Shown here: positions 17,040 to 53,418 of the stretch, one piece after another | How positions within the stretch are numbered: the first letter of the stretch is position 1 | How the letters are laid out: the number at the start of each line of letters is the position of its first letter | Origin: Bilabrum cf. latius | Lineage: Eukaryota | Length of the DNA: 64,000 nt | NCBI GenBank assembly: GCA_965178125.1 | Contig: OZ237773.1 | Coordinates: 372,001-436,000, forward strand | Direction of reading: 5' to 3' | Notes under the pieces: model-generated | Database searches by the model: none | What the model was told of the DNA's origin: nothing | What the model saw: only the letters and a program-made list of their open reading frames with translations | Translations under genes and position numbers: made by a program

Positions 17040-17080
<41 letters not shown>

Positions 17081-25743: not shown

Positions 25744-25920
25744 CATCACACGGCCCTCGATCCATCACACGGCCCTCGATCCATCACACGGCCCTCGATC
25801 CATCACACGGCCCTCGATCCATCACACGGCCCTCGATCCATCACACGGCCCTCGATCCATCACACGGCCCCAGTCCCCATCACACGGCCCTCGATCCATC
25901 ACACGGCCCCAGTCCCCATC
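25744..25920. repeat. 19/20-bp minisatellite (~9 units) overlapping the stop of the FabI-like gene
   Basis: CATCACACGGCCCTCGATC x7 plus two CATCACACGGCCCCAGTCCC variants; no spacers. Confidence 0.92.
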
Positions 25921-27110
25921 GCGCTCAGCCCGCAGTCCACGCGCAGCACCTGCCCTGTCACAGCGCCCATCCCCGGAAACGCCAGACTCGCGACCATCTG
26001 CCCCGCCTCCGCCTGCGTGAGCGCTTGCTGGGGCCGCATGGAGGACTGCTGCGCCCGCTCCCTCAGCTCCGTGAAACCGGGGATCCCACGGGCTGCCAGC
26101 GTGTTGACGGGGCCAGGGGACACGCAGTTGCTGGTGATGCCCAGCGGGCCCAGCTCATGGGCCAATGCCCTGGAGGCGGCCTCGAGGGCGGCCTTGCTGG
26201 GTCCCATGACCCCATAGGGGGGACACACCCTGGAGGACCCCTCGAATGTCAGAGCCACCACGCTGGCGTGGGAGGGGAGCAGCCGGGACTCGGCGGCGGA
26301 TCCGGGGGTCGGAAGGGGGCCCTCGCTGGTGTGACGAGTGCTCACTGCCTCGTCGCTCGCGCCTTGCGGGCCCCGGTGGAACCTTTCCCACTCCGGATCC
26401 GGCATTTCGGGCCGCTCCGGTGCCACGCCCGCGGCGAGCATGGGAGCGAGGGCCCTGGTGGTTGCAACCAGCGAGTAGGCGGACAGGCTGGAAGCACTTG
26501 CCCAGTCGGTTTCGGACAGAGCGAGCATGGGCGAGCACCTTGACAGCCGCTGGGCCTCGCGCCAGCGCTCCTGCCCGTACTCGCCCAATTCTGGTGGTGG
26601 GGGCATGCATTCATGGCTACTATCCCCGGCGAGGTCTTCGTCCGGCTAGTCTTCACCGGGCCGCATAGCGGCTCGTGTGGCAAATGCAATGCTGTGGCAA
26701 AAGGCGTGCAGCTTGCCACCAAATTGGCCAGTGGCGAGGTGGTCTGCCAATTTCTAGACATCAGACTCCTATGAAGCGTCGAATAAAATGTGTGACAGAG
26801 GTGCAACGCCATCGTCAGAGTCCCTTGGGCTCCATATCCTCTGCCATGATGACTGATCCGATGCTACACATTTCTGCAACCTGTCCAGGAACCGCTCGCT
26901 CTGCATGCCAACGCAAACTCGAGCCCCAGCTGCTCTCCAAGATCTCGCTACGTGCCATGCTATGGACCGTTCGGATGAAAAACCAAGCACCAAGCAGTTT
27001 CGGCCCATGAGCAAGTTCGACATTGGAGGTGTATGGTGGTACAGACGCATACCACGCTGGGGCCTGTGCCAGATCCGGCACATGTGCACAACTTGATGTG
27101 TTCTATGCAT
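25899..27110 (-). CDS. fabI: FabI-type enoyl-ACP reductase (SDR family), possible mitochondrial presequence
   Basis: Motifs LVLGFSSERSIAW, HSIAFA, SAYSL, YGVMGPSKAALE (Y-x6-K), LGPLGITSNCVSPGPVNTLAARGIPGF, VTGQVLRVDCG. One frame reads through TAG 26769, 26754 and 26646 to TGA 25899. Alternative start at 27023. Confidence 0.85.
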
Positions 27111-27247
27111 AATTTTCGAAATTGGTCTTCAGTAATGAGTGCAATACGGATAGCAGTGGAGTATGCCGTGATGCTCCGAATCTATCATGATGGCAACTCA
27201 ATTTGCGGCGACATTCATACCACCATTTCGAAGATTCCCACGCTATC

Positions 27248-34556: not shown

Positions 34557-37500
34557 TCATTGTCTTCCACCATTGCGCTCATCCTCAACTAGATCCGTCC
34601 CGCTGGCATGAGCGTGAGCATGGGCAGGCCCACCAGCCCCCACCACTCTAAGCACAACCACCGTCACATCGTCAGGCATGCCCCCACTCCACAGGATGTC
34701 GTGTTCCTTGGCCACCAGCGCAAACGGCGAGTCGGTACGCTTGTCCACGGCCCGCTCCCGCGCCACATCTGCAAGCATCGCGGCCAGCCGAGCCGCCGCA
34801 CCGTCCGACCCGCCCACAGTGCCCTCCCCTATTCCAGCTCCCCCTCCGGAGCTAGACTGATCAGGCGAATGCGACGATATCGATGGCAATGAAGAGGAAG
34901 AGGAAGAGGAAGAGGAAGAGTCGTCCCCGTCCTCACCACTCGTCACACTGCCATCGCCAGACAAGCTCCGCAGCAGGTCAATCGCCCGCCGACTGCCCCT
35001 TCCACCCCCCTCTCCACTCGTCACACCACTACCGTCCTCACTCGTCGCACCCAGCGGCCTGGCCTCCCAGGCCCCGTCCCTCCCCTCCGCCGCCGCCGCC
35101 ATCAGATCCCCTTCCTCTCTGGTCCACCGGTGGACGCACCTGAGTATCTCCTCCTCGTGCACGTTGTCGAACAGCCCGTCCGTCGCCAGCACGACGAGGT
35201 CTCCATGCCGCACGGGGACTCGGATCACGTCTGCGTCCTCGGGTGTCTCAAACCAACGCCGAGGGGGGGAGGGCGAGGGCGAGGGTGCATCGCCCCCTGA
35301 GCTGCCCTTGCCGCCGCCCTTGCCGCCGCCCTTGCTGCCTTGCTGCGTACTCCCCTCACTACCCTAGGCCCCCCCGTGCTCCTCGTCATCCTCCGGGGGG
35401 GCGGGGCAGTGACCCAGCTGGTACGGAAAATTGAAGCCGCGCAGCTGCTAGGGTGAGCGGAACACAACCGACAGAGCGCGTCGGGCTGCAGCCGCCCGGC
35501 GCCGCGCAATCTCCCGGTTCCGCTCGAACTCGGCCCGCTTCGGGTCGTACTGAGCCTGCTGCGACAGCTCAAACCCGGGCAACTCCCCGTCGGAATCCGG
35601 CTCGAGCTGAGCCTCGTCATCCGAAGCAGAGCCCAGTGTGGCACCCCCAGGCCCGGAGCCGTCCGCCCCCAGGCCAAGGGACCCCTGGGGGGCATCGGCG
35701 GTGCCCAGTGACCCCATGTTGGAGACGCGCCGGGGCCTCACCACGATGAACCCGGAGTCGCCCAGGTTAGCGGCGACCAGCTGAGACCGAAGCGGGTCCA
35801 CGGTAAGCACGCATGCTGTGGCAGACCCAACCGTGGCCTGCTCGGCGGCGTACTGCCACGCGTAGCGCAGCACCTCGATGGGACCCGGAATCGATGGCGC
35901 CGCGCGCTGCGGAACCTGTGCCAGCGCGGCGGCCCTCGCCGCCGCCTCCTCCTCCTCCTTTTCCCTGGCTTTCTCCAACTTGCTGGGGCGCCCCCTCTTC
36001 CTCCTCTTCTTCTTCTTCTGCTGCTCAGCGGGCTGGGCGTGCCCAGATGCGGCGCCCCCGGTACCCTCCCCCCCTTGCCCTGCTTGCAGGAGCATGGCAG
36101 GACCCGCCAAAGTGGCCGCTTCCCGCACCGCCCGCTCTGCCCCTCTCATGAGCGCGGTGCTGTAGTCGCTGGGATTCACCCCCATGCGATGCCAGTCCCC
36201 CACGCCGTCGCTCACGCCGAAGAACGACACCGCGGGCCCCTCCAGGGGCGCACTCGTCACACCGCCGGTCCCCGCCGCCGCTGCTGCAGCCGCCATTGGC
36301 ATGCCCGGCCACCTGAGCGACACCGCCAGCACGGCGTCCTCGGATGGTTTCTCTTCCCTCTGGGGTCGCGGGAGCGCGGCCCAGCCCGCCTGCACCCCAA
36401 CTAGCTTGCGAGCGCCGGCAGCAGCAGTGGCGGCCTGCTGCCCCGAATAGGAGCCGCTGCCCGCCAGCACCCGCGCCATGGCCGCCGCGCCTCGCACCCG
36501 CCTACCCAGAGCGCCGATCCCCTCGCCCTCGGCCACAGCCCCACCCACGCCCCCCCCCACTGACGTGTACGGGCCCAGGCCACCCGTCTGAATCGATTCC
36601 GGGTCCCCTTCCTGGGTCTCCGACCCGGCTCCGGATCCAGTCCCTCCCCCCGCCGTCTCCCTCGCAGGCCCGATGTCGCTCTGCGTGTCTGCCACGAAAT
36701 CCACGAGGTCCTTCAGGGTCACCACCCCGTGGAGTACCCCCCCGCCCCCGCTGGCGCCCAGGCCCCCGTGGCTGCCGTGCCCCCCGCCGTGCACCATTCC
36801 CGCGGGGGGTTCCCTCCCCGGGTCTATGACGGGCAAGGACCTCACCTTGAGCCTGGACATGACACGCAGGGCCTCGCGGAGCGGAGTGTCCGGGCGGATG
36901 CTCACGATGCGGGCCGCTGGCGTGGCGAACTGTTTAGCCGGCTGCAGGAGCGCAGTCGCGAGGGCTCGGTTGGTGACGTTTGATCTGGTTGCGGCGAGCG
37001 TGGTGGACTCTTCGTGGCTGGGCGGCAGCGGGGGCAGCGAGGAGGCGATGGCGCGGAGCAGGTCCCTCGCGGTGAGCATCGCGGTCACGTGCTCGCCTTG
37101 GCCTGCCGACTCCGTCTGCTTCGGTTCATTGCTTGAGGCTGAACCGCTTGGTTTGTCCTCTCCTGGATCGTTTGGCGTAGTGACGAGAATCACAGATCCC
37201 AGTCGCTGCTCCGTCAGGTGCCGGACCGCCTCGGCCACCGAGGCATGCTCCCCAATCGTGAAAAGCCCGGCTGTTAGCTGTTTCAGGGCAAGAACATCGG
37301 CTGCAGTACTTGATAGGGCAGCAGCACGCGCCTCTGCGGCCTACACAAGGGCCGCTTCTTCCTCGGCTGATTCGCCCCACTGATCCTCGCGTCCAGCACT
37401 CACTATCGTATCAATTAGCGGGTCCGGGCCGTAGCGCGGCGTCTTCTACGAGGCACCAGGGGCAGGCGCGCCTATTCCTTTCGATGGTAGTGTGGGGCTG

Positions 37501-37673
37501 CCGCCATGCAGCGGCGCGTCACTGCTGATGAGACGGATCCCGAAAAAAGTGAGCGCTGGGCGCTTTCGTAGCTTAGCCCGGGGCTGGGACGCAATGTCTC
37601 CTGCGCTCTAGGCATAATGATAGATAGATTTGCACAAACGAGCGGACTTGCGCACAATTCCGGAGCGTTTCAT
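34557..37673 (-). CDS. CBS-pair plus PTC7-type PP2C phosphatase fusion, Arg-rich mitochondrial-like N-terminus
   Basis: CBS repeats (SVAEAVRHL...GSVILV...MLTARDL; PDTPLREALRVM...RSLPVID...GVVTLKDL). PP2C motifs GVSDGVGDW, GSATAC, ANLGDSGF, FNFPYQL, LATDGLFDN, GGMPDDVTV. TAGs at 37608, 37446, 37341, 35448 and 35364; TGA at 34557. Confidence 0.85.
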
Positions 37674-37826
37674 CGTTCTCGAGCTTGATGTGCAACCACC
37701 CGCAGTTGCAGCGGGACCGGTCACATGAAATGCGCGGCGCAGCGAAAGCGCTCTGTGCCCAACGATGCCAGAATAAACGATAGTGTCCATGATTCCAGCG
37801 CAAAAAATGCCCCAGTATAATCACCA

Positions 37827-40217
37827 TCATCGCCGCTGCCCTTCCCCTTGCCCCCTCCTCCCGTACAGGTCAGTCGGCGCGGGCACCACCCCCTGCCGCA
37901 GGGCCAGCTGAGACTCGACGGACTAAAGCAAGCTGCTGGCGCGGCTCGCAAGGGAACCGTGACCACCCGCACCCGTGCCTAGAACGGGACTGCCCGCCCC
38001 CGCCCCCTGCCCCGCCGCGTCTCTCCCGCTCCCAGGCACCGCCTGTGCCGCCGCCGCCTCCCCCGCGCGCCTGGCCTGCTCCGATCGACCGCCCTCTGCC
38101 TCACTCTCCGTCCCCGTGCCATCCGCCTCGAGCGCCGCCGCGGCCCGCGAGGAGGCACCTGCCAGTGAGTGGTCGCTCATGAGATCGTTCGGATATCCCC
38201 CCGTGCCCGTGCCCGTGCCCGTGCCTGTGCCGGCCCCCTCCCTCTCTCCTGCGTGTTCCCTGAGTCCCCGCAAGCCCCCTTGTTCCCCACGTGCACCCGC
38301 CATCTCACCCGCAGAAGATTCAAGCTCCGACACAGACACGTCCCCCCCCCGGATCAGGCGGGCCACCGACTCGTCCACGGCATAGTCCGATGTGGCGCTC
38401 CCGCTGCCATACCCGCTGAACGAGCCCCCCCTTTGCTCCTCTGTTCCCCGCCTCCAGCTGGCCCCCCTCCTGGGGGCAGGCCCCCTCCCGCCAGCCCCCC
38501 CCTCGTCCTCCGATGTGAGCATGGACCCCTCGCTGGAGGCAGACGCGCGCCGGGCCGCTTCCAGAGAATCCAGGATCGTGCCCTTGCCCCTTGTTCCCTG
38601 GCCAGAGGGGCCGTCGTCCAACGCAGACGGCACGGACCGCCCCTGCCTTGATCTGCGGCCTCCCCTGCGGCCCCCACTGCCGCGCCCCCTCTGACCCCCA
38701 CCGGTGGTGGGGACATCCCCGCCCCGCATGGGGGCATACATACCCGCCCGCCCCTCGCTTCTGCCGGTGGACGAGGCAGTACCGCTGTCCTCTGCACCAC
38801 CGTGCACTGCGCCCCCGCGCCCAGTCTCAGGATCCACACCCACACCCGCACCCGCACCTGCACCCGCACCCGCCCCGCCAGCCGAGTCCAGCCGCCGAGC
38901 AGCACCCCCAGCGGTTGGGGTACCCATGCTCCCCAGGCCGCCGCTCCTCCTGCCACCAATCCGCTGGCCCCCGACCCCGACCGGACCCGAAGCCCCCATC
39001 ATCTGCGGAGTCTGCATGCTTCCCCTTTCGTCCTCGCTCACGGACATGAGGCTCCCCACGGTGGAGTCGAGCGCAACACGGCCCAGACGGGACACGCCCG
39101 CGCCCCCCGCCCTGGCCCCGGGCTCAAGGTAGTGGTCATCCATGCTGATCACCTCCCGGGCGTTGACCAGCTCACGAGTCACCGTCGCCAGTTGTTCCCT
39201 GGCGACCGCCAGCTCCCTCTCCACCAGCTTCAGCCGCTGCCTGAGGCTGTTTGCCTCCTGCCGCGCGGCCTCCCTCTGCTTGTGGGCGTGCTCCAGCTTC
39301 TCCTGCAGCCTCTGAGACTGCTTCTTCTCCAATCTGTAGCGCTGCTTCTCCCGGTCTAGCTGCTGTTTGAGCGAGCGCACCGCCGTGGCGTCCTCGTCGC
39401 GCATGTAGCTCGCCTGCGATGCGCTCTAGTCGTCACCCTCGGCACCTCCCAAGCTGCTCACGTCCATGGACAGAGGGACAGAGGCGCGGTCGTTGCCGCT
39501 CATGTACGTGGCTCCGTAGGGGCCTATTCTTGAAGATGAAGAAGTGGCATCCATCGGGTGGAGTGACCGGCCCTGGATGCTCCCGCCGCCCCCGTTGAGC
39601 GTGCCGCCCCGGAGGCCGAGCACGACCGGGCTGCCGCCGCCGCCCGGTCGCGGGAGCAGTGCGGATTGGCTGCTCCCAGAATCGGCCCTAGCGGATCGCG
39701 ATGGACTGTGGCGAAGTACCTAGTCGATTTCATCTCTATTGTAGAGGCAGTAGCTGACGCTGGCGAGGACGGCGAGCATTTCGAGCCACGCCACGGTGCA
39801 AACAATGTTGTCAGTCACTAGCGTTGACTGTGCGGAATCGGCCAAAAATCCATCCACGGCCACTAGAATGAGGAAAATAGCGTTTCCGAGGGACAGCACC
39901 ACGGTAGGTACTTGAGCAGCAACCTGGACTTTGGCTGCTCCCTCGGTCAGGACAGTGGTCGTCGTGTCCGGCAAAGATGCCCGCACAAACGAGGCGCATA
40001 GGGCAACCGCAACCCAACATGCTGCATGTAGCACAGTTACACGAGCTGGTCGGGCAAAGAACTCGTCATGCACGCGGGGTAGCACCAAGGTCAACACAGC
40101 GAACGCAAACATCGTGAACGCTTGGATGACCAGAGGCCACCATGAAAGCCGTTGCTGCCGCTGAGACCTATTGGCAGACTTTTTCTACGCTACATTATCA
40201 GGAAACTAGCTCCGCAT
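37827..40217 (-). CDS. Multi-pass membrane protein with coiled coil (possibly TMEM192/FIP1-like)
   Basis: ORFs 39720-40112, 39426-39623 and 37923-39404 are in one frame joined by TAG and end at TGA 37827. About 4 hydrophobic segments are followed by a coiled coil. Start uncertain; family call weak. Confidence 0.6.
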
Positions 40218-40454
40218 CAGGCCGCGGGCGATCCCTGTATGCCAGCAGGCAATTGGGAAAGGCCAACGAACCAATGGAACCTCTTGAAGCATCGGTGCGA
40301 ACGTTCATCATCCCCGGGTGGCTTGACCTTTGCAGGGCATCAAAACTGTAGAGATTTTGGCAGCACAAGTATAGTGGGCACAGTATCTGAAACAGCGACT
40401 TATCCCTCGTAGCAGTGGGCTTGCGAGGACAGGCCACGCCACACGCACATCCGA

Positions 40455-41805
40455 TCATCCCAAGCCGCTCAGGCCATTGCCAACCGATGCCTCCAGGGCC
40501 TGGCGAACGTTCCTCGCACCCTGTTCTTTGGCATGCTCCCGCGTGGCATTCGTCACCTGCATCTGAGCCTTCAGCTTCGCCAAGCCGTCGTCACCCGTCT
40601 GCCCCGCCCCACCGAAGCCCTAGACCTGCCCTAGACCCATATGACCCCCGTCCACGTACGCACCGTCGCGCAATGCACGTGCCAAAGGGGTCCGAGCCTC
40701 AGAGGATGGGCTCAGGCCCATCCCAAAGCCCATGCCCGCACCACCACCGCTCCACATCTGTCCGCCCGCCCCTCCCCCTCCCCCTCCCCCTCCTAAAGTG
40801 CCGGCACCGGTGCCGAACGAGTCAACCGAAGCAGCCGTGGCAGTGCCGTTGGCAGCCAGCGCGCCACCAGCCCCCTCCGGTCCTACAGCGGCTCCGAGTC
40901 CATACCCGGCGTGCTTCACTGACAGCGGAGCAAGCCCCAAATGGCCTTGCCCCTACCCCTGGTTCTAGGTCGGTATCGCACCTGCACCTGCACCTGCACC
41001 TGCGCCTGCACCCGCACCCGCACCCGCACCCGCACCTGCACTGCTGCCCAGGGTTCCTGGGTGACCATGCGGTAGGGGGGGCTGGGGGTGGCCGATCATG
41101 CCACCGTGCACTGCACCTGCACTCTGCCCCCATCCTGGGGTCGGGGTGCCCATGCCCCCCATGGTGCCCATGCCCCCCATCGCGCCCATCGCGCCGAAGC
41201 CTCCCACAGTTCCAATGCCACCCATCGTGGCAAGAGGAGGCAGACCACCGCCTGCACCCACGCCCGGACCCATCCCCATTGCCACTGGCATTGCCATGGG
41301 CATCACCGACGGCATCCCATAGCCCACTTGCATGCCCGGGTTCATGCCACCCTGCATGCCCGGGTTCATGCCACCCTGCATGCCCGGATTCATGCCGCCC
41401 TGCATCCCGCTGTGCCTCATCTATTTCTGCTGCTGAAGGTCCTCCCCCATCGCCTCCAGCTGAGCCATACCGCCGTTGGCGCGCGTGGCACCCTGCCCGG
41501 ATGAAATCACCGGCACACTCGTCACACCTCCTAGCACGGGATCAGTGGACTCGTCGAACGTAAACCCTCGAGGTGCGGCCCCGGTCCCGCGGTGGGTCGC
41601 GGCTCCCTGACCCAGACCCATGGGCCCAGGGCGACCCCCCCGCGCGCCACCTCCCATCGGCCCCCCTGTCATGGATCCACCGGGCATAGGCCCCGCGCCC
41701 CGCATCGGACCCCCTGTGGCAGTCATGGGCCCATTCCCGACAGGTGCCCCCCCTGCTGAGACGGTGGACAGGCCAGACGGGCGCTGCTAGCGAGAAAGAG
41801 GCGCC

Positions 41806-41838
<33 letters not shown>

Positions 41839-44800
41839 GTTTGGCTGGACGTAGTCGCAGCCGCGGAAGAGTACGACGCGCTGCCTGCACCTGCGTGCGA
41901 TGCACCCGCAGCCGTGCCATCCACCAGGCTTCTCAGCGAATTCGTGGACCCTGCCCTGGACCTTGTGCCCATGCTGCGATCTGTCACCAGCGCGCTTGCA
42001 CTGCCGGCCCCGCCGACGCCGCGTGGTGAGGGCAACGGGTGCCGGTTCGATGCGACAGAGGCATTGCCGGTCACGTATCCCGCTGACACTGAAGCGACGG
42101 ACCCTGCCCTGGAGGCATCCGAGCCGGCCCTTCCCCTAAAGCTGCCGCTGTTCCTCCCCGCGGCAGTGCCCCGCGGGCTCGCGCTCGCACTCGCACTCGC
42201 CGCCCCTGCCCGGATGGCCTGGTGCAGGGACAGCCCTGGGACGAGACTAGAGGAGGCGCGACCGGTGCTTCCCACACGCGCCTGCCCCTGTCCCGCAGCC
42301 ACTTCTTTCCCCCCTTTCCCTCCCCCACTAGCGCCCAGCCCCAGATCCAGGTCGTCATCCAGTATCCCAAGCTGCCCAAGGGCCTTCCCGAGAGTTTCCT
42401 CGCCCGCGCCGGCGCCCGATCCCTCGCTTTTTCTCGGAACGGACCCCCTGCTACCCCTGGCGGACCTCCCCCCCTATGACCCCATACCGGGGCCGCCGCC
42501 TGGCCAGCCATACTCTGTCCTTGTTCCCCGGCTGCCCCCCGTGCTCGAAGACACCCGTTTCATGACGCGGGTCTGGGGCTAGGGCTGGGGCTGGGGCTGG
42601 GGCTGGGATTGCCCTGCACCCGAGTTGCTGCGCTGCTGCGGCTGCTGAAATCGGCGGCGGCTTTCACCACCGCCTCCCACAGAACGCCTGCCAGAGTAAA
42701 TTGGGCTGGTCGTGCCGTCGCCGCGCACGTCTTGACCTGGGGCACCTCCCGACGCTGACCCCGTACGGACGGCATGCGGGGATTCGGTCTTGGCGCGTGG
42801 CCTGCCAATGCCCCCGGTCCTGCGCCCGCCAGCGCTCTGTGGTCTTGAGCGAGACTGCTGGGCGATGGGGCCGGGCAAGCCCAAGGGACCCACGGGACTA
42901 GGCTCCGGCTCGTTCTCGACGTGCACCTTGTCCTGGTCCTGGTCCTCATCGCGATCCTGGTCCTGGCCCTGGTCCTGGCCCTGGTCCTGGTCCTGGTCCT
43001 GGTCCTGGTCTAAATCCGCCGATCCCGAGGCCAAGACGGGCGCACCGGTGCCCCCTTCTTGCATGGCTTGCTGAGCACCCCTATGGAGGCTGTCCTCAGA
43101 ACCACGCCCCTGGCCGCCACTCGACCCGGAGTTCAACTATGCAGACAACCCTGCCTGTTGCTCTGGCGTACTACGGATCACCTGCGGCGGTGCCACAGCA
43201 GGCATGGCCAGTGACTCGGCAGAAGCAGACAGAGACACGCATGCAGGAGGCTGGGGCGCGCCGGCGCTGGCCAGTCGACCGGGGGCCCCGCTCTCCGCGA
43301 GAGGTTGCTGGGCGCCGCTCACCAACCGACCCAGACGGCCGCCCAGACGAGCAGCAGAGGGCAGCGTCGATGAAGGGGAGTCTGAGGAGGCCACTGGCTG
43401 CGTGTCTGGTTCGGCTGGCGTAGCCTGGGCTTGCGCAGCAGGACCGGTGGATCCAGTGGTGCCACTCTCAACGAGACCAACACCCGTGCTGGCGCGCGCC
43501 TGTCCATTTTCCCCCGCGCGCTCATGCACAGGGAAGCCATCCATGGCACCATCTCGATCAGGAGCCGGTGCAGTGCCAGCAACTGCAGTCCTGGAGTCGC
43601 CTCCACGCATGCTGGGTGCATCTATCCCTCCAACACCATGACCATTATCCCCGTTCCCGTTCCCGTTCCCTACCACCCCGTGTATGCCCGGTTGTCCAGC
43701 CTCATGGGCCTGTGTCTGGGCCAGCAAGGAATCAGCAGCGCACGAGACGGGCACCAGCTCTCCCATGCTGCTGCCCCTTGATGCACCCGGGATGAAACCA
43801 GGCCCGTCTGCACCAGCACCAGCACCAGCACCAGCACCAGCACCAGCACCAGCATCAGCACCAGCACCAGCACCAGCACCAGCATCAGCACCAGCACCAG
43901 CACCAGCACCAGCACCAGCACCGGCCTGTCCCTGGGGCGAGATGGAGACCGCGGGAGGCCTCGCCCTGCCCCCAACACCAGGAGAACCTATGTCATCAGG
44001 AAGAAAGCTGGGCCGGCGGGCAGCACCGTCAGGCGACATGAACTGCATCAGCGGAGGCATGTCGCCGGATGCACCGCCGCGCGATGGGCCCCCCGGCATC
44101 GGTGAGACAGCCACGGCGTACGACAACAGTGCTGTGCCCTGGCCCTGGCCCTGGTCCGCTGCGGGCCCAAGCGATAGGGCAGGAGCAGCGGATCCAGCGG
44201 ACTGCTACCGCTGCCCCTGCCCCTGCCCCTGCCCCTGCGTCCCGTCGCTCTGGTCGTGCTCCTGTGGCGTGTCCAGCGGTGAGGGCTAAGGAACGTGCGA
44301 CGAGTGTTCATCGTTGTGTGGCGAGTAAACTCCGCCAGGGAGCAGATCACCCCCGGAGGCACCTGTCCGCAGGGGCGAGCTCATGGGCATGGACGGGCGG
44401 GGTGCCGCAGCTCCACCCGCGGTGTGGGCGTGACCCCCACCTGCAGCATGATTGTCCTCACTGGGATCTGATGCTTCCACACCCGGCGAAAAGCTCGCGC
44501 CTGTCTCATCGTGTTCCTCCGAGTCGCCGTGGGGGCGGGCCATCGGGTGCACGCCTGCGGGCGACACGGGTGGCAGTGCCCCACTGACCTGCCCCTGCCC
44601 ATGCCCCTGTCCTTGTCCTTGTCCTTGTTCTGAACCGCGCCTGACAGGTGTTCCCGGTGATGCATCCCGCTGCTGCCCGCTCCTAACGTGTGCGACGTGC
44701 CCTAGCTGCGACTGCGACCGGCCCTGGTAGTCACCGCTCTCCCTGTCGCTCTCCCCCTAGCCCTAGCCCTCCCCCTAGCCCTAGCCCTCTCCAGGCACCC

Positions 44801-46674
44801 CCAGCCCCTCCCCCTCCCCCTAGCCCTCTCCAGGCACCCCCAGCCCTGTCTGTGGACCGGAGCCCGGGCCGGTCACGCCGTCGTCGTCGTCGTCCACGTG
44901 TCCAGGAGCGCCTACGGGATGGTGCGCCTGCTCCAGGTGAGGCATCAGATCGGAGCCGGCGGTGGACCCCACAGGCCGGGCCGCCAGCGGTACTCCCACC
45001 CCCCCCACAGAGGACGAGGACGAGGCGTCCCCCCGGGTGGACCCACCAGTGGATCCGTCGCGGCCCCCCGCCGCCCCTGAATACGAGTGGGTCGCGTCAT
45101 GGAACAGCACGGGGATCACGTCCAGCCCGCCGCCCGACTGACGGAGATACCCCTGCTCCAGCCCACCGAGCTCATGGTGGCCCCCTTCCCCACCGTCGGT
45201 GGACGAGTCCTCGGGGATGCCAGGCAGACTGCCCGTCCTGCCCCTGCCCCTGCCCCTGCCGCTCTGCCTGGAACCCCCGTCCCCTTCACCGCTTCCGTTC
45301 CCGTTCTCCTCCAAACCACCGGTAGAGTGACGCTCTGCGTGGGCGCCATCCACGTCCACGCTGGGACGGTGGGCGGGCGAGGCTAGACCAGCCAGTATGC
45401 CGCTGCCGGCAGCTGTGCCGTCCAGCCCACCGCTCCCGCTGCTGATGCTCGAGCCCATGCCACCTGGCACTAGGGCTGGGCTCTCAAGACCGGCGGAGGG
45501 CTGCCGGGAGCGCACAGACACCGGACTCTGTGGGGATGGCTAAGCGTTGCCTGGCTACCCGCCGTTGTTCCCTGCATCCTGAGGATGTCTGCTAGCATCC
45601 TCCACGTCAGCACTGCTCGCCTGGCTGTGGTGGCCCGGCTGTGCCCTCGGGACTATCATGGGGGAGGGGGGCACGCTATGGGAGGACACGCCCCCGCTGC
45701 CGATTCCGTGCACCAGCGGAGGCAGCATGCCCTGTCCCGCCGCGGGGCCCGGCGCGCCCTCCTTGTCGAGGGCTGAGGCGCCTCCCTCGCTCATGGCACC
45801 GTCCCTGTGTGAATGCACCGAGGGGTGCGGCACGTGGTGGTGGTGCTGCAAGAGCGGGTCCTAGTACCCGGGGGAATCCCCCTCCCCCCGCAGCGGGGAC
45901 ACCAAGGGGCCGGTCCCAAAAGCGGGTTCACTTGCGGGCAGCGATACCGCATCGTCCGACCGTGGCCCCACGATGCTCGGGCCGTCAATTCCCCTGTGCC
46001 CGTGCTCGTGCTCGGGCCCGTGCCCCATCTCCATCGAGTGTTCCCTGGTCAAAGCCGGCATCCCACCACCACCTCCCTACCCGTGCACCCCCTCGCCCTC
46101 GTCACCTTCGCTACCAGGCACGCCCATCGAGCCCGCGTGAACCTCCATGCCCGCATCACCACCCGCAGACACCCCAGCCACGGACCCCGCCTGGCTTACC
46201 GAGCTGGTGTCCATCGCTGCCGGGAGTGCGAATGGCTGGGAGCCGTGCGAGGACGTGTCCAAGTCCCCTTCAGGAGCCAGGGGCTGGTGCAGCTCCAGGT
46301 CATGTCCCTCGGGGTGGGTCGCGGGGGACACGTGCACGGAGGGAGACTCGTTGGCGCTGGGCGAGGAGTCGGGGGCGGGGGCTGGAGCGGCAGATGGGGC
46401 AGGCCCATCGGTCGACGCACCGTGCTCTGCTAGAGACCGGTCGACGGAGCTCGCCCCTTGGTCTGGTGCCGACTGCTGGTGCTCCTGTGTCTGCTGCTGC
46501 TGCTGCTGCTTCTGCTTCTGCTTCATCTGCAACACGTGATCTTCGGAATCAGCCAGTAGGTCCCCCTGGGCTGGGTCCGAGGCAGGCAGGCTCGAGCCAC
46601 TATCGTGCGCTGCACCAGCACCTTCCCGGCCTCTCCCGCTGCTGGCTGCCTCAAGTCCAGACCCAGGTGTACCG

Positions 46675-46717
<43 letters not shown>

Positions 46718-49700
46718 ACTCCTGCTCCTACTCCTGCTCCTGCTCCTGCTCCTGCTCCTACTCCTACTCCTACTCCTAGATCCGCCCGCTCAACACGCTG
46801 GGCCTCGCTGCCTCCTGCTCGAACTCCCTCGTGGACTGCCCGCGGAGCAGGGCAGGAGGCAGCGCGGTCTGCATGGAGATCGAGGAGGTGGAGGACCTCC
46901 GCAGCTGGGACTCGCTGGACATGTCACCATAGTCCTGCTCTCCCTCTCCCTCTCCCTCTCCCTCTACATCACCCCTACCATCGGTACCCTGCTGGGCCAT
47001 GCCTGGGGGCACCTCAGGGTTGTCGTTCGCGCCCTAGATTGAATCGGCATGCAACACGGGGGAGGACTAGGCAGTGGCACTCGGCCCATTCCCTGTGCCT
47101 GTGCATGTGCCTGTGCCCGGCCTGGGTGGCCTGCCCTGACGAACGGCGCGGCGATCCATTGATTTTCGTCTACTACCAGCAGCAGCAACGCCGCGCCAGT
47201 CTTTCCTCGTCGCCTCTCCACCAGAGGAGGTGGCTGCACCGCCTGCGCGTGTGCCGCCGCTCTGCAGCGGATTGCGCTGCTGATCTGCGTTGGTACCCTC
47301 AGGCAGGCGAGGTGTCAGCGGGCTATCCGGTCTCTCGTCCTACCGGCGGTCCCTTCCCTTCTCCCCAGCGGAGGTGCTGGTGCTGGCACCATCCAGGTTG
47401 ACCTCGCCGTCGGCTAGTGGTACAGCGTCGAGGCCGGAGAGAACAGAGTCGCGGCCAGCGGAGGCTCCCCCAGGAGGCAGCTTACCGACAGCTGCGTCCA
47501 TCTGATCCAGAGGACCCGCGCATGACTGCACCAGGACAGCGCGTTGTTCTCCATCCCCTTGTTCTCCGGCCCCTTGTTCCCCAAGAGGGACGCGCACAGT
47601 CGCCCCAGGGGCCAGGGCAGCAAGCCTGGCCCCCAGGCACACAGCCTGCAATACGTCCTTGGACAACTGCTCGCCTTCCCTTCCTTCTGTTCCGAGCCCG
47701 GCGCCCGCAGCTTCCACCGCCCCCCTCACCTTCTCTTCCCACTCCTCCACGGGACACACCAGCGTCTGGGTCTGCTGCTCTGCCGTTGCTGTTGCAGCGG
47801 ATGATGATGAGGAGGAGGCCGAGGCGCGCGACTGGGCGGACCAACACACCACCATGCCGTGGTCCTTCACAGCATCGCCAGTGCCCTCCAAAGATACGCG
47901 GATGCTTATGCACGGCATGTCCTGGGACCGGTGGCCCGATCCCAGCTGGCCTGAGGAGTCCCCCGTGGCCTGCCTGCCGGTTTCCGACCGTGCATCACCG
48001 CCGTTGTCACCGTCCTCCTCTTCCTCCACGAGGTCCTCGGGGGCCCCTTTGCTTGCCCCCCTATTCGGGGACGCGTTGGCTGACTCCACCTTCCGCTCCC
48101 ACCCCATGTCGAAATCGTCGTCATCCGGCCCGGGGCCCAGCCCGCTCCCGCTGCCCTCAGACTCTCCGCCCGCTGACCCGACAGAGTCTTTGCGCGGCCC
48201 GCGGTCCGCCGCCTCGCCCTATCGAGCGGTAGCTCCATCTGGGCCGCTCGCCCCGCCTTGTTCCCCACTTGTCGTCACACCACTACCTCCGGGATCTTTT
48301 GGGTTGCCTGGCCTATTCCCATTGGCTAACACAGACGATGCATGCACCTCACCCGTCCCACCCGAGTCTCTGCAGCCGCTGCTGCTGCCGCTGCTGCTGC
48401 TGCTGCTGCTGCTGCTCTATGTTGCCGTGCCTGCGCCCCCTTCGTTCTCGTCCCCCGCACGTGATCGCACGGCCCCCTCGGGCACGATCACCAAGTTAAA
48501 CGACTCGTCCTCGTCCTCTTCCTCTACACCGCCCACACCACCAGAGGGACTGCTGGCTCTGCCACCCGCAGGATTCGCGGGCGAACCAGTCCTCGAGCAC
48601 GATGCGCCGTCGTGCTCCAGATCCGACCCGGCCCCCGCCCCAGTCCGAGAGGCCCGCCCCCACGCCGTTGGGGTGGATGGCGGCGTTGTGGGGGACGCGC
48701 CATCCTGACCCTCTAGGCGACCCGCGCCCGACCCCGCCCCTGCAACAGAGGACTAGCCGGCAACTGAGGTAGACCCCGCCAGCCTGAGGAACTCGTCCTG
48801 CAGCAACTCCGTGGCGGAGGGTCTGTTCCCCGCCGCGTCCGTGTTCAGGCACCTCACTATGAATCGTCTCACGGATCGGTGCCTGACCTTGGAGAAGCAG
48901 GCCGGGAGTCTCTTGCGCTGCACCTGCTGGAAGATGAGTCCAATGTTCTCGCACTCGTGGTAGGGCAGCTGGCCTGTCACCATCTCCAGTACCGTGAGCC
49001 CAAAGGCGTATATGTCCGTTGAGCGGGTGTAGGTGCCGTAGTACGCCTCCTGCGGCATGAAGTTGGGCGTCCCGTCGATGACTGGAGCTTCCTGGGCGCT
49101 GGGCTCGCGGGAGGGGCTGCCGGGGATGAGTGTTGGCAGGGGCTTGCCATTGCCCTTGACTTTGGACGGTGACTCTGCTGGTTGGGCCGAAGGGCTGCTT
49201 CCTGTGCCCCTGTCCTCTTCATCCCCACCGGCGCCCTCCTCCCCCTCCCCCTCCTCTTCTTCTTCCTCATCCGTGGTGTCCCCATCAGGGTCCTCCTCCT
49301 CCTCACCGCCACTGCCCCTGCCCCTGCCCCTGCCGCCGCTGGCACCGGCACTGTCACCCCTCGGGGAGGACACCCCCTCGCTACTCTCCTTCCTCTCCTC
49401 CTCGCCCTTGTTCCCTGGGCCCCCCTCACCTGGATCCTCCTTCCCGTCCTCTCGCGGAGACTTGCCTTCGGCCTCGCATGCAGGACCCCTTCCATCGGGG
49501 GAGGGCTCCACCCCCCCCTCGATGGGGGCGGTTTCCTTGGACTCGGAAGGGGAGGCTGCGCCGCCGGGGGGTGCCACCGCCGGTGCACTCGTCACACGCT
49601 TCGACTCCACCACCTCCCCGATGCAGCTCGACCCGAAATCGCATATCTTGACCGACCCGTCTCTGGCGTTGTATAGCACGTTGCTGCACTTGATGTCCCG

Positions 49701-50571
49701 GTGAATGATGGGCTCCGGCTCGCGCGTGTGCAGGTGCTCCAGCCCCTCGAGGATCTGCCTGCACCACCGCTTGATGGCCTTGAGCTTCACACGGTGGCCC
49801 GGCCCCGCCCCAGGGGCGGTAGATCCCCCGGATGAAGAGAGTGTCTTTGTGGGAGCCACCCTGGAGACCGAGGCCCCTGCCCCGAGCACCCCTCCGGCCC
49901 CCTAGGCAGAGGCAGAGGCTCCGTGCACGAAGCTGAGGAGGTCACCGGACCTAACGAACTCCGTAATCATGTGCACCTTGCCTGTCTTTTCGTCCTCCCA
50001 GCTGTCGTAAATCTGCATGACGTGCTTGTGCTTGAGCATGCCCGCCACCTTTGCTTCCCGCCTCACTCTGTCCCTGTCTTTGTCGTCCATCGCGCGAGTG
50101 TCGATGATGGACCATGCTACTGTGCGACCGGAACCAGTGTCGATGGCTTCATAGCTGCGGTAGGTAGGCACGTTTGGACTCCAAAGAGGGAGTTTGGGCT
50201 CCAAAGAGGTCGCGAGCAGGGGCCAGAGCAACGTGTGCGCGAATAGCGAGCGAGGCAGTGAGCCTCAAATCCAAGCAAAAATACACCAACTCTCACACTT
50301 TCTTCTGTGCTCCTTCTCCAATCAGTTTGTCCCACTGCGGTACACATTTATAGAAGGTACTACTACGCGCAGTTCGCGTCGACGACAACAGCAACTGGTG
50401 CGAAGCGACCTCAGCACACACTACCATCCGTTCCTATCACCGGGAGCATCACGAAAGGATAGCATGACGTAGTTCGAATATTTGAAAGCTACTCACCCTC
50501 TTGTACTACTTCCCTCTCATCTCGACGAATGCATCAGTGGTGCTCGCCCTCAGTCCCGACCCTTCCGCCAT
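40455..50571 (-). CDS. WNK: WNK-family Ser/Thr kinase with very long low-complexity C-terminus (~3270 aa); exons 50497-50571, 50297-50334, 40455-50154
   Basis: IGEGAQKKVYEAID (Lys in the Gly loop), VAWS in place of VAIK, WCRQILEGLEHLH, PIIHRDIKCSN, KICDFG, GTPNFM, DIYAFGL.VLEMVT..PY.EC. A single frame runs through many TAGs to TGA 40455. Confidence 0.85.
43810..43922 (-). repeat. (GGTGCT)n coding microsatellite encoding (GA)n in the WNK tail
   Basis: GCACCA repeats on the + strand, interrupted twice by GCATCA. Confidence 0.85.
46677..46778 (-). repeat. (GAG-YAG)n coding hexamer repeat encoding (EQ)n
   Basis: 17 Gln positions: 11 CAG and 6 TAG (46716, 46728, 46758, 46764, 46770, 46776). Confidence 0.9.
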
Positions 50572-51518: not shown

Positions 51519-51941
51519 ATGGCAGCAACACAGCAGGCATCCGCCCAGTTCAAGCAGCATTTCCTGAAGGCGTTCACCGCCATGAGCCAGCGCGCTCGGG
51601 AAGCCAAGGCGCACGAGACCGTCTGGAAGCTCGCCCAGGACGCAGCCAAGGCGGCCGGCGTGCAGGGTGACAAGAAGCAGCTCATGGAATGGGGGTACTC
51701 CACCCGCGCCGAGTACTACAAGCAGAGCTACGACAAGAAGATTTACCACGGAGAGGCCCTGACTGCGCTTGCCCCCGGGCTGTACCGCACTCTTGCCATT
51801 GGAAGCGCCATCGGCGCCGTGCTGGGCGCCGGGTGGATGCTCTACGCTCAGAATGACAAGGCTTTGATCAAGGCAGCCAACGACGAGTGGAAGGCCAAGA
51901 AGGCCGCCATGGCCCAGGCGAGGGAGGGAGGCCGCCAGTGA
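51519..51941 (+). CDS. Small single-TM protein with strong codon bias (possible mitochondrial membrane subunit)
   Basis: ATG follows a likely 5'UTR intron acceptor (cccacag at 51509). GC3-biased codons, TM LAIGSAIGAVLGAGWMLY, stop TGA, no TAG codons. Confidence 0.7.
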   Translation: MAATQQASAQFKQHFLKAFTAMSQRAREAKAHETVWKLAQDAAKAAGVQGDKKQLMEWGYSTRAEYYKQSYDKKIYHGEALTALAPGLYRTLAIGSAIGAVLGAGWMLYAQNDKALIKAANDEWKAKKAAMAQAREGGRQ

Positions 51942-52235
51942 TAGAAAGGAGGGTAGAGTGGGGAAGGAGGGAGACTTCAAGTTGCTGCGATCCAAGCGGG
52001 CAATGAAGCGGTTTTGAGAGGGAGTGGAAAGGGCATGCGCCAGGGCGTAAGCACAGTTAGAAGGTACATGAATGAGATTTGAATTCATGGCAATTGTCTC
52101 CGACCCTTCGGCCCCTGTGCTTGCAAAGCACTAGATAGTCTCCATCCGTCCAATTCCGTGCGGGAGCCGCATACATGCTCAAACGAGATTGCACGTTATG
52201 GTATAGATGAGTCGCCTCTAGTCCGTACGATACGT

Positions 52236-53418
52236 TCACACCGCCCCTGCTCCCTGGAACTCCTCGCTGTCGTTCGCGAACGCGCCGTCAGCCACGGGGG
52301 CAGCCCCCGTTTCTCTCAAAGCGCTCTCTGGCAGTGCCCCCTTCCCCGCCCGCTACCTGCTCCCAGACCCGCTCGCACTCATCACACCGCCCCCCTTGGA
52401 ACCGTCCCCCGCCACGGCTTGCTCGAAGGCAGCGCCCTCCCAGTCGGTATCCCCGCCCTGCCCCTGCGCCTGCCCCTGCCCCTGCCCCTCACCCCTCCCC
52501 TGCGCAGCACCGCTGCCATTCTGGCTCCGAGTCGATCCCTCCCGCTCCCCAGCTGGCAGTGCGCTTCCGAATCGCGCCGAAGCCGCCCCTGCCCCAGGCC
52601 GGCCTCCCCCGGACACGAACCCCGCCCGCCTGGCGATCTCTGCCCTGCGGAGGACCTCGTTCAGGTACCCCGCGGCCCCACCCACCAGCAGCCCCACCGG
52701 ATAGCAGAAATAAAGCTCGTCCTCCCACAGTATCCTCCGCATGGCCGCCCCCCTGTAGTCCTCGATGTCCACCACCCCGAACACGAAGCCGAAGAGGAAG
52801 CCCAGCAGACTGCACGAAAACAGGATCACGTTGATCTGGCTCGCACTGCCGATCAGACCCACGCGGAGCTCCGCGGCTCGGCGGCGGTCGTCACCGGACG
52901 ATGACGACGCGAGCTACTCGGCATGTGGGTCTCGTCTGGCGCACATGACGCCACCAATGTCCGTGACAGAGAAGGCGAACGCGAAGCAGATGGACGTCCC
53001 AAGTGTCGCGTACATGGGGACTTTCACCACGGGGCTCAGCTGGAACAGGTTCTCGTCGAGGAGGAAGCACACTAGGCCTGAAACGACGACGAGGCCAGAA
53101 AACGCGTAGAGCTGGACAAAACTTCGGCCCTCGTGCTGCCGGGTGAGCATCTGGACTCGGAGGGCAAGCAACCCACCAATGAGGGCAAGCAATATACCAA
53201 AGTCTGCGATTGTGTGAATGGGTGTACTAAATTCTTCTATAGCAAGCGCACAGATACGAAAATGGAGACATGATTGCAATAAACTCACAGAATGAAAAGA
53301 AGTTGGACACGGAAATCTCGAGCAGCGTTGAGTTCGCAATCCAAGACACTCCCATGCCCAGGAGGCCCCCAATCACTATTGAGACAAAATGTCTGCATTC
53401 GCACGCACTACCCGACAT
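52236..53418 (-). CDS. Multi-pass membrane protein of unknown function; 2 exons
   Basis: ATG 53418, intron 53204-53288, about 6 hydrophobic segments (LLEIS, PMYATLGTSICFA, FGFVFGVVDIED). TAGs at 52914 and 52353; TGA at 52236. Confidence 0.75.

What the first reader, a model, noticed from the sequence alone, without database searches (positions are those of the whole stretch)
46677..46778. TAG and CAG interchange inside an (EQ)n repeat
In this minus-strand coding repeat, 6 of 17 Gln positions are TAG and 11 are CAG. Free exchange within one repeat is what synonymous codons do. It is the most direct internal evidence that TAG encodes Gln.
Basis: seen in the sequence. Interest (0 to 1): 0.75.

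Follow-up and report, generated by a model that had tools for sequence, protein, structure and literature searches.

The report
In-frame TAG codons in kinase repeat
A Glu-Gln repeat inside a giant kinase gene carries six TAG "stop" codons that are evidently translated, showing that this GC-rich eukaryote reads TAG as an amino acid, probably but not provably glutamine.

Summary
Minus strand 46778..46677 is 17 x (YAG GAG), with 6 TAG and 11 CAG and no other change.

The repeat lies in the reading frame of the 9.7-kb last exon of a WNK-family kinase gene. That frame runs 3269 codons with 0 TGA, 0 TAA and 32 TAG.

Across 14 coding frames (16,972 codons), in-frame TAG is about as common as out of frame (87 against about 99). 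TGA (0 against about 289) and TAA (0 against about 29) are absent in frame. All 13 ORFs checked end in TGA. TAG codons precede essential parts of four enzymes: FabI, a USP9X-like protease, phosphofructokinase and the kinase itself. Contigs from runs that carry spliced joints flank the repeat collinearly. So TAG is a sense codon, TGA is the terminator, and TAA is not sense.

The step from the repeat to "TAG = Gln" is weaker. TAG also sits in Glu-phase positions of other arrays. Arrays tolerate non-synonymous changes. At five alignable sites homologs show K, R, E or A, never mainly Q. I put Gln at about 0.65-0.7; Lys/Arg and Glu remain open.

The parts
46677..46778 (-). Hexanucleotide coding microsatellite (YAG GAG)x17: 6 TAG and 11 CAG alternating with 17 GAG. 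It covers codons 1163-1196 of the open frame counted from 50264.
40458..50154 (-). Giant last coding exon of the WNK-family kinase gene. It holds the kinase domain from the end of the Gly loop onward, plus about 2,800 codons of low-complexity tail. There are 32 in-frame TAG and no TAA or TGA in the open frame 40458-50264.
   Evidence: (joint at 50154)
40455..40457 (-). TGA terminator of the kinase reading frame.
50155..50296 (-). Intron (142 nt, GTGAGA...CCGCAG on the minus strand). It is skipped in contigs of runs X5, X6 and X7 but not in X4.
50297..50334 (-). 38-nt exon encoding the Gly loop (motif GEGAQKK), including the Lys that WNK kinases use in place of the beta-3 Lys.
50335..50496 (-). 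Intron (162 nt, GTGAGT...CCGCAG on the minus strand). It is skipped in contigs of X5, X6 and X7.
50497..50571 (-). Coding part of the first exon seen. ATG is at 50571-50569, and in-frame TGA, TGA and TAA lie a few codons upstream.
50506..50508 (-). In-frame TAG at codon 22. It lies between the only possible start codons (Met1, Met18) and the Gly loop, so it must be translated for a working kinase to be made.
44751..44847 (-). Second TAG-bearing array in the same exon: GGC-TAG units (7 TAG) mixed with GGG-GAG units, inside a 39-nt duplication. Here TAG alternates with Glu codons.

Best explanation
The repeat is an in-frame hexanucleotide microsatellite, (CAG GAG)17. It lies in the long disordered tail of a WNK-family protein kinase, encoded by a nuclear gene of a GC-rich (about 65%), intron-containing eukaryote. 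In this genome TAG is an ordinary sense codon, TGA is the terminator and TAA is not sense. Replication slippage built the array. C>T transitions then turned some CAG units into TAG units, which spread further by slippage. They persist because the ribosome reads TAG through, most probably as glutamine via a tRNA with anticodon CUA, so the peptide stays (Q-E)17.

Shown: the frame, the sense status of TAG, transcription of the flanks, TGA termination, and the WNK identity.
Inferred: the mutational history, the tRNA, and the residue (Gln about 0.65-0.7).
For: FRAME AND CODON USE
- The frame holding the repeat is open for 3269 codons with 32 TAG, 0 TAA and 0 TGA. The other two frames of the same stretch hold 45 and 53 TGA.
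- Over 14 ORFs (16,972 codons) the in-frame counts are TAG 87, TAA 0 and TGA 0. Out-of-frame density predicts about 99, 29 and 289.
- 13 of 13 ORFs checked end in TGA.
- Both alternative frames of the repeat are closed by TGA: at 46792 and 46525 (RS frame), and at 46926 and 46653 (GA/GV frame).
- GC by codon position on both flanks (0.70/0.60/0.67 and 0.75/0.55/0.74) matches the coding pattern of the ORF set (0.69/0.57/0.71).

TAG UPSTREAM OF ESSENTIAL DOMAIN PARTS
- FabI: three TAG before the catalytic half.
- USP9X/USP34-like protease: a TAG inside the catalytic domain, before the His box.
- Phosphofructokinase: E 4e-67 to the T. brucei enzyme, with the TAG inside the alignment.
- The kinase itself: TAG at codon 22, before the Gly loop.

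TRANSCRIPTION AND CONTEXT
- Contigs of X5, X6 and X7 carry GT..AG-spliced joints that are absent from X4. They run collinear with the genome at 45015-46479 and 46786-48367, with 0 differences.
- The base after TAG (G 0.44, C 0.29, A 0.16, T 0.10) matches that after CAG (0.44, 0.32, 0.14, 0.10). There is no special read-through context.

FOR GLN
- TAG sits in the Q phase of five separate arrays or runs: EQ, PQ, two GQ and poly-Q.
- TAG/(TAG+CAG) = 0.128, close to TTG/(TTG+CTG) = 0.184.
- Q is the most enriched of the 20 residues within 8 codons of 62 TAG loci: 0.063 against 0.043, z 2.6, uncorrected p 0.009. With this repeat dropped, z is 2.3.
- Genuine Q residues of this organism align to K/R-majority columns in 6 of 18 cases, so the K/R seen opposite TAG is compatible with Q.
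Against: - No TAG site aligns to a Q-majority column. FabI site 1: R46, K46, D10, S6, Q5, N4 (top six residues of 120 homologs). FabI site 2: A74, D14, E9, R7, T6, G3 (top six of 120). USP site: K in USP9X, I in USP34. PFK site: K in T. brucei, and R, R, K, E, K in five bacterial homologs. WNK codon 22 falls where I recall an Arg in animal and plant WNKs (recall, not a call).
- In the only relative found (Logan-derived protein P0137, 147/191 identical), our TAG at 47342-47340 faces E and our TAG at 47069-47067 faces R.
- TAG also occupies Glu-phase positions at three array loci.
- In-frame arrays are weakly constrained, so interchange within a repeat does not prove synonymy.
- With one TAG per locus, a local-composition classifier did not pick Q: G, T and S ranked ahead of Q (tied with P), all with scores near zero.
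- The window has no tRNA gene, and no whole genome was available.
- No listed contig bridges the repeat itself.
Confidence: 0.65

Rival explanations
1. TAG is a sense codon but specifies a basic residue (Lys, less likely Arg). The repeat would then read (K/R-E)4(Q-E)4..., a mixed charged repeat, and the C>T changes are tolerated replacements in a disordered tail.
For: - Homologs carry mostly K/R opposite TAG at 4 of 5 alignable sites: FabI site 1 (92 of 120 K/R); PFK (5 of 6 K/R); USP9X (K); and WNK codon 22 (Arg, from recall).
- The relative P0137 has R at one of our TAG sites.
- Calibration on the same alignments: K/R-majority columns face 10 of 18 of our K and 16 of 30 of our R, but only 6 of 18 of our Q. 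That gives roughly a 5-fold likelihood ratio over Gln.
- Arrays tolerate replacements.
Against: - TAG never appears in the K or R phase of an array: 0 AAG and 1 AGG among 89 flank-matched partners.
- K is not enriched and R is depleted around TAG loci, whereas Q is the most enriched residue.
- The papers I read give no nuclear UAG=Lys or UAG=Arg. UAA=Lys in one ciliate is my recall.
- A tRNA-Arg would need two anticodon changes (inference).
- There are only five sites, all at variable surface positions.
Confidence: 0.15
2. TAG is a sense codon for glutamate, as UAR is in peritrich ciliates and Blastocrithidia. The first eight residues of the repeat would then be poly-Glu.
For: - TAG occupies Glu-phase positions in three arrays: the edge of an (EA)n array, the edge of a (GE)n array, and the mixed GE/G-TAG array at 44751-44847.
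- The relative has E opposite our TAG at 47342-47340.
- One of five bacterial PFK homologs has E at the TAG site.
- UAR=Glu is reported for Blastocrithidia nonstop (abstract start of PMC12153298, seen in the listing).
Against: - In this repeat TAG replaces only CAG units: 6 of 17, against 0 of 17 GAG units. Across arrays, GAG>TAG is 0 per 38 opportunities against CAG>TAG 4 runs per 55.
- The G-TAG units are GGC-TAG while the G-Glu units are GGG-GAG or GGA-GAG, so they are not one mutation apart.
- Only 7 of 30 of our E residues face K/R-majority columns, against 2 of 3 TAG sites.
- E is not enriched near TAG loci.
Confidence: 0.08
3. TAG keeps a stop function and is passed only by inefficient or context-dependent read-through (an ambiguous code). 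Many of the long tails would then be made only in part.
For: - TAG loci lie preferentially in Q/G/S-rich low-complexity sequence and are depleted near W, T, V and R. A somewhat costly codon would be expected to show this pattern.
- TAG/(TAG+CAG) at 0.128 is a little below TTG/(TTG+CTG) at 0.184.
Against: - In-frame TAG density equals out-of-frame density: 87 observed against about 99 expected.
- TAG lies upstream of indispensable catalytic parts of four enzymes.
- None of the 13 ORFs ends in TAG.
- The 3' neighbour of TAG is the same as for CAG.
Confidence: 0.06
4. The repeat is not translated as E-Q. Either it is read as (Arg-Ser)n, where AGT/AGC are ordinary synonymous Ser codons, or as Gly-Ala/Val, or it is intronic or non-coding microsatellite DNA, or its TAG/CAG pattern is an assembly error.
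For: - The T/C change is synonymous in the AGG-AGY frame.
- No listed contig bridges 46480-46785.
Against: - The RS frame has TGA at 46792, 14 nt before the array, and at 46525. The GA/GV frame has TGA at 46926 and 46653.
- The E-Q frame is continuous for 3269 codons without TGA or TAA.
- Contigs from runs that carry spliced joints abut the array on both sides, collinear with the genome. No listed joint removes it (41 further joints were not shown).
- Codon-position GC has the coding pattern in the same frame on both flanks.
Confidence: 0.03

Closest known systems
UAG-only reassignment to Gln with UAA kept as a stop: Iotanema spirale (PMC5304391, abstract read); Hartmannula sinica and Trochilia petrani (PMC11687900, abstract and introduction read); NCBI table 15 as the formal code
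   Same: TAG is used as a sense codon in many genes while TAA is not. Here TAA is 0 in frame against about 29 expected, even though CAA is used 133 times. That pattern implies a CUA-anticodon tRNA rather than a UUA one, by the reasoning in the introduction of PMC11687900.
   Different: - Those organisms terminate mainly at UAA. Here 13 of 13 ORFs end in TGA and the DNA is about 65% GC.
- The organism is unidentified. It has GT-AG introns of 85-162 nt and giant low-complexity genes, unlike what I recall of ciliate or fornicate genomes.
- Gln is not demonstrated here.
UAG-only reassignment to Leu: the rhizarian exLh (PMC5304391, abstract) and three TARA phyllopharyngean ciliates (PMC11687900, abstract)
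   Same: UAG alone is a sense codon, and UAA and UGA remain stops.
   Different: Leu fits poorly here. Only 2 of 47 of our Leu residues face K/R-majority columns, against 2 of 3 TAG sites. TAG loci also lie in polar low-complexity sequence.
UAR = Gln codes of ciliates, in which reassigned stops expand Q-rich motifs (PMC10942620, title and abstract start seen in the listing)
   Same: A reassigned stop codon lies one transition from CAG, inside Q-rich low-complexity and repeat sequence.
   Different: Here only TAG is reassigned, not TAA, and the genome is GC-rich.
WNK (with-no-lysine) protein kinases
   Same: - The 15 best of 32 PDB matches are WNK1 and WNK3 (E 2e-42 to 4e-40). The next family scores 1e-16.
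- The beta-3 strand reads VAWS where WNK1 has VAWC, so it has no Lys.
- A Lys sits in the Gly loop, GEGAQKK.
   Different: - About 170 residues are inserted before the activation segment.
- A low-complexity tail of about 2,800 codons is full of hexanucleotide arrays.
- A TAG codon lies in the N-terminal lead-in.

Membership tests
Nuclear code with UAG reassigned to sense (UAG-only type) | In-frame TAG inside conserved genes, upstream of indispensable domain parts | tested here: met
   FabI, USP9X/34-like catalytic domain, phosphofructokinase, WNK codon 22 before the Gly loop.
Nuclear code with UAG reassigned to sense (UAG-only type) | TAG is not depleted in coding frames, while the true stops are absent in frame | tested here: met
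   in-frame TAG 87, TAA 0 and TGA 0 in 16,972 codons, against about 99, 29 and 289 expected from the other two frames. The ORFs were chosen as TAA/TGA-free stretches, but they reach 3,269 codons where out-of-frame TGA recurs about every 58 codons.
Nuclear code with UAG reassigned to sense (UAG-only type) | Genes terminate at the remaining stop codon(s); TAA is not sense | tested here: met
   13 of 13 ORFs end in TGA. TAA is 0 in frame. About 19 would be expected if TAA were used like TAG relative to CAA (133 CAA x 0.146).
UAG = Gln specifically (table 15-like) | TAG positions align with conserved Gln in homologs | tested here: inconclusive
   0 of 5 alignable sites have a Q majority; homologs show K/R, A, K/I, K/R/E and R (the last from recall). 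All are variable surface columns, and genuine Q here faces K/R-majority columns in 6 of 18 cases.
UAG = Gln specifically (table 15-like) | A tRNA with anticodon CUA and a Gln-type body | not testable with these tools
   ARAGORN found 0 tRNA genes and Rfam 0 hits in the window. No whole genome is held.
UAG = Gln specifically (table 15-like) | TAG interchanges with CAG/CAA at equivalent positions more than with other codons | tested here: inconclusive
   Flank-matched partners of TAG number 89 in all: CAG 29, CAA 1, GAG 16, GAA 2 and TAG 22, plus CTG 5, GGT 3 and 11 others. By locus there are 5 Q-phase and 3 E-phase arrays.
WNK protein kinase | Kinase domain closest to WNKs; no Lys in beta-3; catalytic Lys in the Gly loop | tested here: met
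   One search gives the top 15 PDB hits as WNK1/WNK3 and aligns VAWS to VAWC. Searches give GEGAQKK in the spliced 38-nt exon. That this Lys corresponds to WNK1's catalytic Lys is by spacing and recall.
Coding microsatellite (slippage-generated low-complexity repeat) | Perfect short-period tandem array in frame, one of many in the same gene | tested here: met
   Period 6, 17.2 copies, 94% matches. TRF reported 29 rows within 40400-50300. 23 clean in-frame arrays lie in the ORF set, 17 of them in this gene.

The most novel reading that the evidence does not exclude
UAG is decoded in this GC-rich eukaryote as a basic residue (Lys or Arg), not as Gln. None of the papers I read reports that meaning for nuclear UAG. 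It would sit in a code where TGA is the only terminator in use. The 'Q' phase of this repeat would then be a recent charge-changing drift rather than silent variation.
Probability: 0.15. Interest if true: 0.85.

Novelty: new member of a known kind. Interest (0 to 1): 0.58.

Why it matters
Nuclear codes in which UAG alone has become a sense codon are known from only a handful of lineages (PMC5304391; PMC11687900), and those terminate mainly at UAA. Here TGA does all the terminating seen, in a GC-rich, intron-bearing eukaryote with giant repeat-rich genes. That fits a route by which GC pressure empties a stop codon before it is captured.

Practically, standard-code gene callers will shred this genome's genes. 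The relative's P450 in the public protein collection starts just after our TAG, and its kinase fragment is only 189 residues long.

I could not identify the organism. Five full-text searches turned up no report of such a code in a GC-rich eukaryote, but that does not prove it is unpublished.

This repeat adds one illustration of TAG being tolerated in a CAG position. It does not settle the meaning of the codon.

Tried and rejected
- WHOLE GENOME AND EARLIER NOTES: neither was available.
They showed no base differences, so there is no CAG/TAG polymorphism to read. No listed contig bridges 46480-46785.
- RNA STATUS OF THE RUNS: no listed holder is on record as RNA. I treat X5-X7 as carrying RNA only because they hold spliced joints that are absent from X4.
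- RELATIVES: one homolog search timed out. The representative search with codons 880-2079 of the kinase frame found a single protein, P0137. A metagenome scan with the P450 found nothing. The clusters of P0122 and P0137 have one member each.
- PDB SEARCHES WITHOUT USE: the PP2C match did not cover the TAG site. The USP-like N-terminal 1,600 residues had no match.
- CONTEXT CLASSIFIERS: a plus/minus 2-residue naive Bayes ranked Q first over all TAG contexts (2.6 against -4.1 for the next) but S and R for non-repeat contexts. A plus/minus 8-residue profile with one TAG per locus was uninformative. The homopolymer-run count was confounded by the focal repeat.
- NEIGHBOURING-BASE AND GLY-CODON CONTEXTS: TAG matched neither CAG nor GAG clearly.
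- BOUNDARIES OF THE RELATIVE'S FRAGMENT: they would put a stop opposite our CAG at one end and our TTG at the other. Without its DNA this is speculation.
- SPLICE COORDINATES: my first splice reconstruction was off by one base and was corrected.
- LEU, TYR, TRP FOR TAG: rejected as unlikely on column calibration.
Full report
**1. The observation**

Read on the minus strand, 46778..46677 is 34 codons: TAG-GAG x4, CAG-GAG x4, TAG-GAG, CAG-GAG, TAG-GAG, CAG-GAG x6. That is 6 TAG and 11 CAG alternating with 17 unchanged GAG. TRF reports period 6, 17.2 copies, 94% matches and no indels.

The only variation in the 102 nt is C>T at the first base of the CAG codon. Contiguous TAG units can spread by slippage, so this amounts to perhaps 2-4 independent events.

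**2. Which frame?**

The same DNA reads (Arg-Ser)n in the +1 frame, where AGT/AGC are ordinary synonymous Ser codons. It reads Gly-Ala/Val in the +2 frame. The repeat alone therefore cannot tell a recoded TAG from a plain Ser wobble. The surroundings decide it.

- The E-Q frame is open from 50264 to 40458, 3269 codons, with 32 TAG and no TAA or TGA. The two other frames of that stretch hold 45 and 53 TGA.
- The RS frame has TGA at 46792, 14 nt before the array, and at 46525. The GA/GV frame has TGA at 46926 and 46653.
- GC by codon position in the E-Q frame is 0.70/0.60/0.67 upstream and 0.75/0.55/0.74 downstream. This is the pattern of the whole ORF set, 0.69/0.57/0.71.

**3. The gene**

The frame starts with a protein kinase domain (Pfam 4.5e-34). 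Its 15 best of 32 PDB matches are WNK1 and WNK3 (E 2e-42 to 4e-40); the next family scores 1e-16. The beta-3 strand reads VAWS where WNK1 has VAWC, so there is no Lys.

Contigs of runs X5, X6 and X7, but not X4, skip 50155-50296 and 50335-50496. Both are GT..AG on the minus strand. They also skip 53204-53288 in the next gene. These runs therefore carry spliced RNA.

Joining the exons gives:
- an ATG at 50571, with TGA, TGA and TAA just upstream in frame;
- an in-frame TAG at codon 22 (50508-50506);
- then the Gly loop GEGAQKK on a 38-nt exon.

The only start codons lie before that TAG, so it must be translated for the kinase to have its Gly loop. The repeat lies about 1,130 codons into a protein of about 3,270 residues, in a low-complexity tail that contains 17 of the 23 clean in-frame arrays I scored.

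**4. TAG is a sense codon in this genome**

Over 14 ORFs (16,972 codons) the in-frame counts are TAG 87, TAA 0 and TGA 0. The other two frames predict about 99, 29 and 289. The ORFs were picked as TAA/TGA-free stretches. Even so, lengths of 2,900-3,300 codons, where out-of-frame TGA recurs about every 58 codons, cannot be chance.

- 13 of 13 ORFs examined end in TGA.
- TAA is not sense. CAA is used 133 times and TAG at 0.146 of CAG, so about 19 TAA would be expected; none is seen.

TAG lies inside or upstream of indispensable parts of four conserved enzymes:
- FabI, with three TAG before the catalytic half;
- a USP9X/USP34-like protease, with TAG inside the catalytic domain before the His box;
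- phosphofructokinase, E 4e-67 to the T. brucei enzyme;
- the WNK kinase itself.

The base following TAG is distributed as after CAG, so there is no read-through context.

**5. Transcription**

Contigs from the runs that carry spliced joints cover 45015-46479 and 46786-48367 collinearly with 0 differences. Further pieces cover much of the exon. They stop at the CTG array (46473-46522) and at the E-Q array, as k-mer contigs do at repeats. No listed contig bridges 46480-46785, and 41 joints were not shown. The flanks are thus shown to be in RNA, and the array itself only by continuity.

**6. Which amino acid? Evidence for Gln**

- TAG sits in the Q phase of five separate arrays or runs: this E-Q array, a P-Q array, two G-Q arrays and a poly-Q run.
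- TAG/(TAG+CAG) = 0.128, near the only comparable first-position pair, TTG/(TTG+CTG) = 0.184.
- Q is the most enriched of the 20 residues within 8 codons of 62 TAG loci: 0.063 against 0.043, z 2.6, uncorrected p 0.009. Without this repeat, z is 2.3. K and E are not among the five most enriched residues, and R is depleted.
- UAG-only Gln codes exist (PMC5304391, abstract; PMC11687900, abstract and introduction).

**7. Which amino acid? Evidence against a firm Gln call**

(a) Of 89 flank-matched repeat partners of TAG, 30 are CAG/CAA but 18 are GAG/GAA. One vote per site gives Q 9 and E 7 among 27 voting sites, and five of the Q votes are this repeat. In the array at 44751-44847 TAG alternates with GAG. 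However, the units are GGC-TAG against GGG-GAG, two changes apart, and all TAG there may descend from one unit.

(b) Arrays are weakly constrained. Synonymous transitions are 9 per 305 opportunities, non-synonymous 9 per 582, and transversions 3 per 320 against 13 per 1513. Interchange inside a repeat is therefore not what only synonymous codons do.

(c) The alignable TAG sites face:
- R46, K46, D10, S6, Q5, N4 (top six of 120) at FabI site 1, and A74, D14, E9, R7, T6, G3 (top six of 120) at FabI site 2;
- K in USP9X and I in USP34;
- K in T. brucei PFK and R, R, K, E, K in five bacterial PFKs;
- by my recall, an Arg of the GR[FY] lead-in of WNKs.

(d) The only relative found is a Logan-derived 189-residue fragment, 147/191 identical. 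It has E and R opposite two of our TAG codons.

**8. Calibration on the same FabI and PFK alignments**

K/R-majority columns face:
- 2 of 3 TAG sites;
- 6 of 18 genuine Q;
- 10 of 18 K;
- 16 of 30 R;
- 7 of 30 E;
- 2 of 47 L.

Leu and the aromatics are unlikely. Glu is somewhat disfavoured. Lys/Arg are favoured over Gln by only about five-fold when the two further sites are added, and Gln is fully compatible. In this GC-rich organism Q often stands where others have K.

Weighing this against precedent, array phase and the Q enrichment, I put:
- Gln at about 0.65-0.7;
- Lys/Arg at about 0.15;
- Glu at about 0.08;
- an ambiguous or leaky code at about 0.06.

**9. Mechanism**

Shown: an in-frame coding microsatellite in a transcribed WNK gene, TAG tolerated in frame genome-wide, and TGA termination.

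Inferred:
- slippage built (CAG GAG)n;
- C>T transitions produced TAG units that slippage copied;
- a tRNA with anticodon CUA, which reads UAG but not UAA (the reasoning set out in the introduction of PMC11687900), decodes them;
- GC pressure that favours TGA as terminator may have freed TAG for capture.

No tRNA or Rfam hit is in the window, and no genome was available.

**10. Comparison and novelty**

The kind is known: UAG-only stop-to-sense reassignment. It is reported as Gln in Iotanema, Hartmannula and Trochilia, and as Leu in the rhizarian exLh and in TARA phyllopharyngeans. What differs here is exclusive TGA termination, about 65% GC, GT-AG introns, and giant repeat-rich genes.

I could not name the organism. 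FabI has no relative above 33% identity among the 120 best hits. The P450 has one 90% relative that is known only from a Logan assembly and is truncated just after our TAG. Five literature searches showed no GC-rich eukaryote with this code. Supplements were not consulted.

I file it as a new member of a known kind, with the residue still to be determined.

**11. Verdict**

It is not "the most direct evidence that TAG encodes Gln". The strongest evidence in the window for sense status is the stop-codon census and the TAG codons inside enzymes. The residue needs genome-wide inference, the tRNA, or mass spectrometry.

Noticed in passing
window 3337-21311 (+): Two giant open frames overlap at 12480-13044 in different phases: 3337-13044 (3236 codons) and 12480-21311 (2944 codons). 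The second carries a USP9X/USP34-like catalytic domain. They are probably one gene of about 6,000 codons joined by an intron or a frame change. The first 1,600 residues tested have no PDB match.
   Followed up: partly
window 25902-27128 (-): An enoyl-ACP reductase (FabI) gene with a ~120-residue insertion and no obvious targeting extension in this exon. Its best relatives among 1,635 hits are only 28-33% identical (full-length matches among the 120 listed) and are mostly Verrucomicrobia-type. It may be a transferred or a very divergent gene.
   Followed up: partly
window 37821-37829 (-): The TMEM192-like ORF (37830-40304) and the CBS + PP2C phosphatase ORF (34560-37820) lie in the same frame, separated only by TGA-NNN-TGA. 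Either two genes are packed extremely tightly or they form one transcript with tandem stops.
   Followed up: no
window 22659-25103 (-): A phosphofructokinase gene split into at least two exons (an N-terminal part within 24060-25103 and a C-terminal part at 22659-23696). It is closest in the PDB to the Trypanosoma brucei enzyme and 43-46% identical to PFKs of Spirochaetota, Victivallales and Cyclobacteriaceae MAGs.
   Followed up: partly
window 27332-29464 (+): A sulfatase gene in at least two pieces (27332-27847 and 28178-29464), with one in-frame TAG at 28358 outside the Pfam-matched part.
   Followed up: no
window 51850-52514: Summed contig depth in the DNA-like run X4 is 6807 in this bin, against about 50 elsewhere. 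Many loose ends of GC-rich simple sequence (GCCCCT-like) sit at 52456-52489. This looks like a dispersed simple repeat. The same region is the most deeply covered in X5-X7.
   Followed up: no
window 53204-53288 (-): An 85-nt GT..AG intron near the 5' end of the membrane-protein-like ORF 52239-53372. It is spliced out in contigs of X5, X6 and X7 with 126-151 nt on the shorter side.
   Followed up: partly
all TAG loci in the window's ORFs: TAG codons concentrate in Q/G/S-rich low-complexity sequence and are scarce near W, T, V and R. The P450 has none in its 522 conserved codons. TAG may be mildly disfavoured in structured domains.
   Followed up: partly
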